Assembly (NCBI GenBank): GCA_951406725.2
Contig: OX597820.1
Location: 29,822,001-29,886,000 of the forward strand
Direction: 5' to 3'
DNA from: Octopus vulgaris
Taxonomy: Eukaryota
Length of the DNA stretch: 64,000 nt
Shown piece by piece: positions 2,185 through 10,781 of the stretch (the first letter of the stretch is position 1; each line of letters starts with the position of its first letter). The notes below the pieces were generated by a model that did no database searches, was not told where the DNA came from, and was given only the letters and a program-made list of their open reading frames with translations. Made by a program: the position numbers and the translations under genes.

Positions 2185-2385
2185 CAGCACGGACTTTGTC
2201 AGTGAACAGGTCGCGGATTTTAGCCACGAAAATATTTTGACAAATTAAACTTAAATGTTGAAGTGAATCGAACGGCTTTTGTGTGTTTCTTAAATGGCTT
2301 ATAAACACCTTCCACGCTGCAATTATTTTCGTTTCAGCACACGATCTCAGATCAAATTACTTGCTATGCGAGTACATCTCCGTAA
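2185..2385 (+). mobile_element. Short Penelope-like pseudo-LTR-derived element in (TA)n
   Basis: Flanked by (TA)n; carries a hammerhead-like motif; same family recurs at 53260-53596. Confidence 0.6.
2195..2244 (+). ncRNA. Minimal type-I hammerhead-like motif, G3:C8 core
   Basis: TTTGTCA-GTGAACA-G-GTCGC-ggatttta-GCCAC-GAAA-ATAT-TT-TGACAAA: 7-bp stem I, partly mismatched stem II, palindromic stem III. Confidence 0.6.
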
Positions 2386-3071: not shown

Positions 3072-3348
3072 GGGTACAGGACACCAAAAAACGTCGAACA
3101 CAATGAGAAACGAAAACATAAACACAAAACCAAGGAAATGGACATTTTTCTTAACGAAAAAATAGAGTACAGGACATACAAAACAAGGAAAATTCCCCTT
3201 CTTCAGTCGCCTTTGTTTCATCTACTCCACGTTTCGAAGGTCAAGGCGATACATGACTTTAATGAAACAATCCTTCCCGCGAAAATCAAATTAAATAAAA
3301 TTTGAGATTTTTTTGCGGAGGGGTAAAAATGGTAACAAAAACAGGACA
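3072..3348 (-). mobile_element. Short (TA)n-embedded element, possibly a degenerate Penelope pseudo-LTR
   Basis: Unique ~280 bp between TA tracts; contains CGAAACG and CTGAAGA pieces but no complete ribozyme fold. Confidence 0.35.
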
Positions 3349-3544
3349 TATATATATATACTTTATTAAAAAGCATCAAAAATATCACAAAAAAAGTTTT
3401 ACTGCTTTTCAATAAAGCATATTACTCTACCTCTGGTATTCGAGTACTATTTTTTCCACCTTGTTTCGCATTTATGCGCTTACTCTGGTGTATGAATATA
3501 TATATATATATATTTATAATAAGATTAGATCGTATACAAGTGGG

Positions 3545-3843
3545 TATATATTTGTAAAAAAGAAGTTTGAAAATGCCACTATATTAGATAAATTTTAATT
3601 TTTACATTTTTACATGTATATAGCATGGACTCTATTGAATGTATGTAACAATTATGAACTGTTCCATTATACTTTTTATGTATATAGCATGGACTCTATT
3701 GAATGTATGAAACAATTATGAACTATTCCATTATACTCTTTATTATAAAAAAATTATTTTTGATAAGGTTCGTTATTTCAAGAACCGAAACATGTAAAAA
3801 TTAAAATGTATCTAATATAGTGGCATTTTCAAACTTCTTTTTT

Positions 3844-3855
<12 letters not shown>
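3545..3855. mobile_element. Fold-back element with ~65-bp inverted arms and an internal ~64-bp tandem duplication
   Basis: 3545-3617 is the reverse complement of 3790-3855; atgtatatagcatggactctattgaatgtatg... occurs twice in 3614-3740. Confidence 0.8.
3756..3802 (+). ncRNA. Minimal hammerhead-like motif, U3:A8 core
   Basis: ATTT-TTGATAA-GGTTC-gttatttcaa-GAACC-GAAA-CATG-TA-AAAATT: perfect 5-bp stem II, palindromic ACATGT stem III, weak AU stem I. Confidence 0.6.
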
Positions 3856-3906
<51 letters not shown>

Positions 3907-4011
3907 TAAATACACTGCTTTATTTTGAGATTGCTAGTGTTAACAATACGCGCAAGTAAAATACAGACTGGAGTTGTAGTGCTCCAAGTGAGCTATATTC
4001 TACTTAATAGT

Positions 4012-4082
4012 TTTAATGGAGGCAATGCAAGCGGAAACTAGAGGAACATAATTAAATTTCCGCTAACATTGCCTCCATTGAA
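4012..4082. repeat. ~26-bp-arm inverted repeat in a (TA)n-flanked element
   Basis: ttaatggaggcaatgcaagcggaaa versus tttccgctaacattgcctccattga. Confidence 0.85.
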
Positions 4083-4124
4083 ATTAAGTGGTATATATAT
4101 ATATATATATAAATTAACAGAATG

Positions 4125-10574: not shown

Positions 10575-10691
<117 letters not shown>

Positions 10692-10781
10692 TCAACTAGC
10701 AATAACCACGCCTCGGATAACCCTCATTGGCTATGGTACCGCCTCTGCGTATCATCATCATTATTATTATTATTGTTATTA

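What the first reader, a model, noticed from the sequence alone, without database searches (positions are those of the whole stretch)
3756..3802. Independent U3:A8 compensatory core (UUGAUAA)
Seen: TTGATAA-GGTTC...GAACC-GAAA-CATG-TA with a perfect stem II and ACATGT palindrome, in an element unrelated to the G3:C8 family 1.5 kb away. With the canonical motif at 36013, three Watson-Crick solutions of the 3-8 pair occur in one window. Caveat: stem I is short and AU-only.
Basis: partly seen in the sequence, partly recalled or inferred. Interest (0 to 1): 0.72.

Follow-up and report, generated by a model that had tools for sequence, protein, structure and literature searches.

The report
Known U-A hammerhead in Penelope retroelement
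This motif is one of more than 800 genomic copies of a small hammerhead-shaped RNA carried in the terminal repeat of a Penelope-like jumping gene; its swapped U-A core pair is inherited and already published for such elements, and it likely cuts itself only weakly and in pairs, so it is an ordinary new example.

Summary
The motif is real: UUGAUAA (3760-3766), a 5-bp stem II, GAA, palindrome ACAUGU and A17, predicted cut after 3796. It lies in the pseudo-LTR of an RT/GIY-YIG Penelope-like element (Neptune-like); the window copy is a short 3' fragment with an inverted, tail-bearing arm in (TA)n. U3:A8 is inherited, not decay: 836 of 864 family matches carry it and none carries C3:G8. A sister family (about 55-60% protein identity) has a different hammerhead with the same U3:A8, so it is not a one-off. 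Natural U3-A8 is in print (Perreault 2011; Schistosoma PLEs, 2014). The G3:C8 family is real (5,884 matches) and unrelated, but the 'canonical' motif at 36013 is single-copy and at chance level, so the window holds two supported solutions, not three. Stem I here is 3 A-U pairs; this minor subfamily lacks the distal arm of four sister subfamilies. 95 of 100 listed insertions run through the predicted cut. Cleavage is untested. The scan noted this motif type before on other DNA of this genome (e1-9975396, e1-10117311).

The parts
3757..3759 (+). helix I, 5' strand (UUU)
   Evidence: 3 contiguous U-A pairs
3760..3766 (+). core strand U3 U4 G5 A6 U7 A8 A9
   Evidence: 836 exact family matches; identical in the majority sequence of 6 of 6 subfamilies
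3767..3786 (+). helix II GGUUC/GAACC with 10-nt loop; the loop differs between subfamilies
   Evidence: the only helix in the centroid of 3750-3806
3787..3796 (+). G12 A13 A14, palindromic helix III ACAUGU (predicted to pair between two copies), A17; predicted cut between 3796 and 3797
   Evidence: self-duplex -4.6 kcal/mol; N17 is A or U in 97 of 98 copies
3797..3799 (+). helix I, 3' strand (AAA); the distal arm seen in subfamilies B-E is missing after it
3614..3849 (+). 5'-truncated 3' end (pseudo-LTR) of the Penelope-like element, without tail; includes a 64-bp tandem duplication (3609-3736) shared with other copies
3512..3617 (-). inverted copy of the element's end, from the ACAUGU palindrome through the 35-nt tail (3546-3512), with an 8-nt duplication near the junction
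3849..3900 (.). (TA)n microsatellite at the right of the insertion (a shorter one lies at about 3496-3512 on the left)

Best explanation
The motif is the terminal-repeat hammerhead of an endonuclease-bearing Penelope-like retroelement, copied here as a truncated fragment; its U3:A8 pair is inherited from the family and it likely works as a slow ribozyme that would cut after A17 only when two copies pair through ACAUGU, probably with help from the element's protein. Shown: the layout, the fixation of U3:A8, the position in both direct repeats of full-length elements (118-136 nt before the first ORF and about 0.9 kb after the RT-EN ORF in L031), and the shared U3:A8 in a sister family. Inferred: folding as a dimer, cleavage, protein help, and that U3:A8 predates the split of the two families. 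In this subfamily helix I is reduced to 3 A-U pairs, so activity is predicted to be lower than in its relatives. The window copy itself is a dead insertion.
For: Long copies carry RT (PF00078) and C-terminal GIY-YIG (PF01541) upstream. Full-length copies are direct repeat - ORFs - direct repeat with the same hammerhead in both repeats (L167: 1,256-bp repeat, 100% identical; L168, L170 likewise); the motif stands before the ORF start in many loci. Common 3' end, ragged 5' ends, inversions, a one-sided tail and (TA)n targets match the insertion pattern in PMC8557442 (passages). 836 of 864 family matches are U3:A8; 13 have another letter at 3 with A8 kept, 15 another letter at 8 with U3 kept, none C3:G8. 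Across six subfamily majority sequences 0 of 11 core columns vary, 3 of 14 helix II/III columns (two are a gap-placement artefact), against 47 of 69 upstream and 19 of 72 downstream columns. The sister family keeps U3:A8 in 19 of 21 copies read (2 not parsed), with other helices: 7-bp helix I and palindrome ACCGGU. No other letter is listed at 3760 or 3765 in contigs of four runs with four organism labels. U3-A8 ribozymes are described as active in vitro (PMC3088659, section 8).
Against: No cleavage was measured. Helix I of the window's subfamily is no more stable than shuffles (duplex z +0.3), and the region does not fold better than shuffles (z -0.35 and -0.47). The youngest subfamily (E) has G10.1-U11.1 and a U-U mismatch after the first helix I pair, which suggests slack selection on cleavage. 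95 of 100 listed insertions read through the predicted cut (counted by eye), as does the window's inverted arm. Conservation against the downstream flank is weak (p 0.02 to 0.17), and subfamilies are not independent. PLE minimal hammerheads cleave poorly in vitro (PMC4209133), and one tested PLE hammerhead cut only with protein and was not needed for insertion (PMC11167929).
Confidence: 0.6

Rival explanations
1. Vestige: the motif descends from a working hammerhead, but in this subfamily (and perhaps in the whole family) it no longer cuts; it is carried along because the pseudo-LTR is copied whole, and any conservation reflects protein binding or promoter overlap.
For: 3 A-U pairs in helix I and loss of the distal arm; about 56 copies spread in this state; weakened helices in subfamily E; 95 of 100 insertions uncut; cleavage dispensable in vitro for an anole PLE (PMC11167929).
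Against: All 11 core columns are unchanged across six subfamilies whose upstream flank differs at 47 of 69 columns, N17 changes only between A and U, and the sister family keeps the core with a full 7-bp helix I. A 2-bp helix I is reported for the Drosophila virilis element (PMC4209133).
Confidence: 0.3
2. Efficient processing ribozyme: both terminal hammerheads cut the tandem transcript to a unit-length RNA of about 4.7 kb that is circularised and reverse transcribed more than once round, which would hide the cut in the DNA copies.
For: Two hammerheads 4,713 nt apart in L167 and L168; 2 of 24 listed breaks into (TA)n fall exactly on the cut and 2 more are compatible; this model is proposed in PMC4209133.
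Against: The excess of breaks at the cut is not significant (p 0.05-0.11) and two breaks also fall 7 nt upstream; weak helix I; low in vitro activity of this class.
Confidence: 0.08
3. Chance look-alike in AT-rich DNA, amplified by transposition.
For: AT-rich context; no Rfam hit.
Against: 0 of 60 strict shuffles; the expected place in both pseudo-LTRs; the same layout with different helices at the matching place in the sister family.
Confidence: 0.02

Closest known systems
U3-A8 minimal hammerheads of Cercyon Penelope-like elements in Schistosoma mansoni (Cervera and De la Pena 2014, PMC4209133; parts 1-2 of 4 read)
   Same: Type I hammerhead in PLE terminal repeats, U3-A8 in place of C3-G8 (about 1,300 hits there), mostly single truncated copies, some inverted pairs, dimer-type helix III.
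   Different: [quoted passage not shown]
Drosophila virilis Penelope hammerhead (same paper)
   Same: Small palindromic helix III and very short helix I (2 bp) in a pseudo-LTR.
   Different: No U3-A8 is reported for it in the text read; it has a bulged helix II and overlaps an intron end, which was not examined here.
Natural U3-A8 core variants (Perreault et al. 2011, PMC3088659; passages and section 8 read)
   Same: Same compensatory pair, stated to be active in vitro.
   Different: Several scattered examples there; here a fixed state of at least two high-copy retroelement families.
EN+ Penelope-like elements, Neptune/Nematis type (Craig et al. 2021, PMC8557442; passages read, figures not seen)
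   Same: RT, CX4CxxC linker, C-terminal GIY-YIG with CCHH, DKG motif, pseudo-LTRs, inverted 5'-truncated copy, one-sided tail, (TA)n targets.
   Different: Two overlapping ORFs with an in-frame U UUU UUA, where the abstract describes a single ORF (the Fig. 1 legend allows a frameshifted ORF1 without naming the clade in the text seen).
Poseidon PAc hammerhead of the green anole (Frangieh et al. 2024, PMC11167929; parts 1-2 of 4 read)
   Same: Pseudo-LTR hammerhead close to the ORF start; most copies appear to come from uncut RNA.
   Different: C3-G8 core, overlapping the start codon; its protein-assisted cleavage was measured, ours was not.

Membership tests
Type I minimal hammerhead of Penelope-like elements | Core N3 U4 G5 A6 N7 N8 A9 ... 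G12 A13 A14 A15.1 ... U16.1 H17 with a Watson-Crick 3-8 pair | tested here: met
   U3:A8 in 836 of 864 family matches
Type I minimal hammerhead of Penelope-like elements | Helix II closed by G10.1-C11.1 | tested here: met
   5 bp in the window; G-U at this pair in subfamily E
Type I minimal hammerhead of Penelope-like elements | Short palindromic helix III allowing a dimer | tested here: met
   ACAUGU, self-duplex -4.6 kcal/mol; ACCGGU in the sister family
Type I minimal hammerhead of Penelope-like elements | Helix I next to the core | tested here: inconclusive
   3 contiguous A-U pairs, not above shuffles in subfamily A; 4 bp plus a distal helix in B and C, long distal helix in D and E, 7 bp in the sister family; published range 2-5 bp (PMC4209133)
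Type I minimal hammerhead of Penelope-like elements | Located in both pseudo-LTRs of the element | tested here: met
   L167, L168, L170 hold it in both direct repeats; L165 too, with one changed letter in the 5' copy
Type I minimal hammerhead of Penelope-like elements | Site-specific self-cleavage after H17 | not testable with these tools
   only contigs were available, which cannot show RNA ends
EN+ Penelope-like element | RT with C-terminal GIY-YIG endonuclease | tested here: met
   PF00078 and PF01541 above cut-off in one 765-aa ORF of L168
EN+ Penelope-like element | Pseudo-LTRs, inverted 5'-truncated copies, one-sided 30-40 bp tail, microsatellite targets | tested here: met
EN+ Penelope-like element | Single ORF (optional frameshifted ORF1 per Fig. 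1 legend of PMC8557442) | tested here: inconclusive
   two overlapping ORFs; the figure that shows which clades may have ORF1 is not held
Neptune/Nematis clades | CX2-5CxxC linker before GIY-YIG and CCHH within it | tested here: met
   C-x4-C-x2-C linker and C-x2-C...H...H read in the translation; definition from PMC8557442
Neptune/Nematis clades | Placement in an RT tree with reference elements | not tested
   no reference PLE proteins were fetched; 'Neptune-like' rests on motifs and (TA)n targeting
Non-LTR retrozyme | Non-coding short unit in tandem repeats, no RT | tested here: not met
   the motif is part of a coding element with a unit of 4.1-4.7 kb

The most novel reading that the evidence does not exclude
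A clade of two-ORF Neptune-like elements has held U3:A8 since before its families diverged to about 55% protein identity while letting helix I shrink to three A-U pairs in subfamilies that still transposed, because the hammerhead is selected to be a slow, protein-gated switch (or a protein-binding fold) and not a free-running cutter. The subfamily series A-E plus the sister family would then be a ready natural gradient for testing what the PLE hammerhead is for.
Probability: 0.15. Interest if true: 0.5.

Novelty: new member of a known kind. Interest (0 to 1): 0.2.

Why it matters
By itself little: hammerheads in Penelope-like terminal repeats and the U3-A8 swap are both published. The practical value is a matched series from one genome (same core; helix I of 1, 3, 4 or 7 contiguous pairs, with or without a distal arm) for the open question of whether PLE hammerheads must cut for the element to spread, and a reminder that CUGANGA-only searches miss more than 800 copies of this family.

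Tried and rejected
Rfam scan of the window: no hammerhead hit. MITE reading of the 67-bp inverted repeat: rejected, the arms are an inverted copy of the element's 3' end and long copies carry RT-EN ORFs. Decay from C3:G8: rejected; the single C3:G8 hit (L037) and a G3:C8 hit (L076) have unrelated flanks and no match to the RT/EN protein. Footprint of cleavage in 5' ends: inconclusive; 3 of 12 breaks in the first 100 of 341 rows, and 2 exact plus 2 compatible of 24 loci in the first 100 of 146 rows (counted by eye; p 0.05-0.11). Expression: no RNA holder listed; the runs laid were contigs and show no ends. Full dimer folding with constraints crashed and was replaced by helix-wise energies. Literature: no paper on octopus PLE hammerheads in searches; searches for 3-8 variants gave PMC4209133 and PMC3884650 only; Lunse et al. 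2017, Przybilski and Hammann 2007 and Hammann et al. 2012 are not held and were not read, so measured rates of U3:A8 and the species list of Lunse et al. remain unseen; supplements of PMC4209133 and PMC8557442, which list motifs and families, were not opened and could include this family.

Full report
Observation. The sequence is as described: TTT (3757-3759), TTGATAA (3760-3766), GGTTC-loop-GAACC (3767-3786), GAA, ACATGT (3790-3795), A (3796), AAA. Read as a type I hammerhead this gives U3:A8, a 5-bp helix II, a palindromic helix III, H17 = A and a 3-bp helix I. A strict descriptor finds it once in the window and never in 60 local dinucleotide shuffles; a relaxed one gives 11 pairs against 0.07 expected per shuffled window. 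Rfam does not detect it.

What it belongs to. The window is G000:C7:29822001-29886000 in a 2.8-Gb genome; I take it for an octopus from a recalled look of its SINEs and from earlier notes of the scan, not from a test. A 76-base search gave 1,142 candidates, of which 40 were scored and 30 fetched. These copies share a 3' end, have ragged 5' ends, often carry an inverted copy and sit in (TA)n. Extending six of them showed RT and GIY-YIG reading frames ending about 0.9 kb before the motif in L031. A search with the 5' part of the ORF showed the same motif before the ORF start in many of 30 loci, and six longer stretches showed the direct repeat - ORFs - direct repeat layout; L167, L168 and L170 carry the motif in both repeats, 4.1-4.7 kb apart, with the predicted cut 118-136 nt before the first ATG. 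[quoted passage not shown] The window copy is a dead fragment: a direct piece 3614-3849 without tail and an inverted arm 3512-3617 with the 35-nt tail, the insertion shape that paper describes.

Is U3:A8 fixed or decay? With helix II held fixed, 836 places have UUGAUAA (reversed control 0). Fifteen have another letter at position 3: 13 family copies that keep A8 (7 C, 4 G, 2 A; some are truncated at that position) and 2 with unrelated flanks. Fifteen have another letter at position 8 and keep U3 (13 G, 2 U). The only C3:G8 match is one of the unrelated pair. So 836 of 864 family matches are U3:A8 and the exceptions are single changes. These patterns exclude subfamily E, whose helix II ends in G-U, and U3:A8 copies with another letter at 7. 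Among 110 distinct copies in hand, 95 fell into six subfamilies; their majority sequences agree at all 11 core columns and differ at 3 of 14 helix II/III columns (two by gap placement), 47 of 69 upstream and 19 of 72 downstream columns. The contrast is strong against the upstream flank and weak against the downstream one (p 0.02-0.17). N17 is A or U in 97 of 98 copies. Contigs from four runs with four organism labels list no other letter at 3760 or 3765.

Is it independent? It is unrelated in DNA to the G3:C8 family (best E 0.12), which is real: 5,884 matches, helix I 7 bp. But a second PLE family found beside one copy (about 55-60% identity to the RT-EN protein; 1,644 candidates, 25 fetched) has at the matching place UUGAAAA (18) or UUGAGAA (1) in 21 copies read, a palindrome ACCGGU and a 7-bp helix I, with no other DNA similarity around it. 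This change of helices around a constant core is the best evidence that the motif is a selected hammerhead, and it makes inheritance of U3:A8 from a common ancestor the simplest reading (inference; convergence is not excluded). A scan of all 195 loci (675,527 bases, partly overlapping) shows further repeated motifs with U3:A8 and with C3:G8 as well as G3:C8, so meeting several 3-8 pairs near each other is ordinary in this genome. The motif at 36013-36051 (-) is not good evidence for the third pair: one match in the genome, chance-level pairing, poor folding, no RT/EN match in the window.

In the window's subfamily (35 exact and 21 one-mismatch matches, some of the latter from a neighbouring subfamily) helix I is 3 contiguous A-U pairs and the flanks pair no better than shuffles (z +0.3). 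Subfamilies B and C have 4 pairs plus a distal helix, D and E a distal helix of 12-16 pairs whose two arms lengthen together (z -4.0 and -2.0, though UA-rich), and E only one pair before a U-U mismatch. The alignment shows that A and A2 lack the segment that forms the distal 3' arm in B-E; a deletion in A is the likely direction.

How it likely works. As a monomer ACAUGU cannot form a hairpin; two copies can pair (-4.6 kcal/mol), as proposed for PLE hammerheads (PMC4209133). The two copies of a tandem transcript would supply each other's substrate strand and cut after A17, giving an RNA that starts about 120-135 nt before ORF1. The DNA record suggests this is rare or reversed: 95 of the first 100 listed insertions run through the site and breaks are not clearly enriched there. 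That agrees with the anole element, whose hammerhead cut only with protein and was not needed for insertion in vitro (PMC11167929). I put 0.6 on a slow, dimer-dependent, probably protein-assisted ribozyme, 0.3 on a non-cutting vestige in this subfamily, 0.08 on efficient cut-and-circularise processing and 0.02 on chance.

Novelty. Natural U3-A8 covariation was reported in 2011 (PMC3088659, section 8) and in a Penelope-like family with about 1,300 hits in 2014 (PMC4209133). I found no paper on this family, but three relevant papers and all supplements were not seen. Earlier notes of this scan reached the same verdict on other DNA of this genome; they are not independent support. Verdict: a new member of a known kind, interest 0.2. 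The carrier's two overlapping ORFs with an in-frame U UUU UUA in 6 of 7 long copies examined (the seventh lacks the region) is the more unusual feature, lies outside this window, and has been reported separately by the scan.

Noticed in passing
L167:2815-6248, L168 (minus strand), L165, L169, L170, L032: The carrier element has two overlapping ORFs: a 466-aa ORF1 without a Pfam match above cut-off and the 765-aa RT-EN ORF in the -1 frame, with an in-frame U UUU UUA heptamer in the overlap in 6 of 7 long copies; likely a -1 ribosomal frameshift.
   Followed up: partly
window 2195-2242 (+) and 53440 (-): G3:C8 hammerhead family, 5,884 matches, 7-bp helix I, palindrome AAUAUU, often in head-to-head pairs; short copies start just before the motif; no RT/EN match in 12 loci.
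   Followed up: partly
L170:1361-1900, L171-L195, L046:1188: Sister PLE family (1,644 candidates) with UUGAAAA core, a 2-3 bp helix II, ACCGGU palindrome and 7-bp helix I; twice seen inserted next to the focal family.
   Followed up: partly
L098-L118, L167: Youngest subfamily (E; median 100% identity, 1,256-bp identical repeats, many full-length copies) has G10.1-U11.1 and a U-U mismatch in helix I.
   Followed up: partly
window 3617; G000:C3:173086071, C14:27003351; L104: Four copies break exactly at the 5' edge of the ACAUGU palindrome, 7 nt before the predicted cut; may be microhomology with (TA)n or a pause at the paired palindrome.
   Followed up: no
window 3200-3250 (-): GAAACGU lies before CUGAAGA with a complementary pair of arms around it, the reversed order described in earlier notes on rewired hammerheads (read by eye).
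   Followed up: no
window 10647-10756 (-): Rfam U4 snRNA match (56.9 bits) whose 3' part is replaced by an (AAT)n repeat: likely a truncated U4 pseudogene.
   Followed up: no
window 4008-4086: 30-bp inverted repeat, 87% complementary, 19 nt between the arms.
   Followed up: no
L009, L010, L042, L178; L017, L157, L193; L162, L166; L072, L032: Further repeated hammerhead-like motifs in the flanks, with C3:G8 (three groups) and U3:A8 (one group) cores.
   Followed up: no
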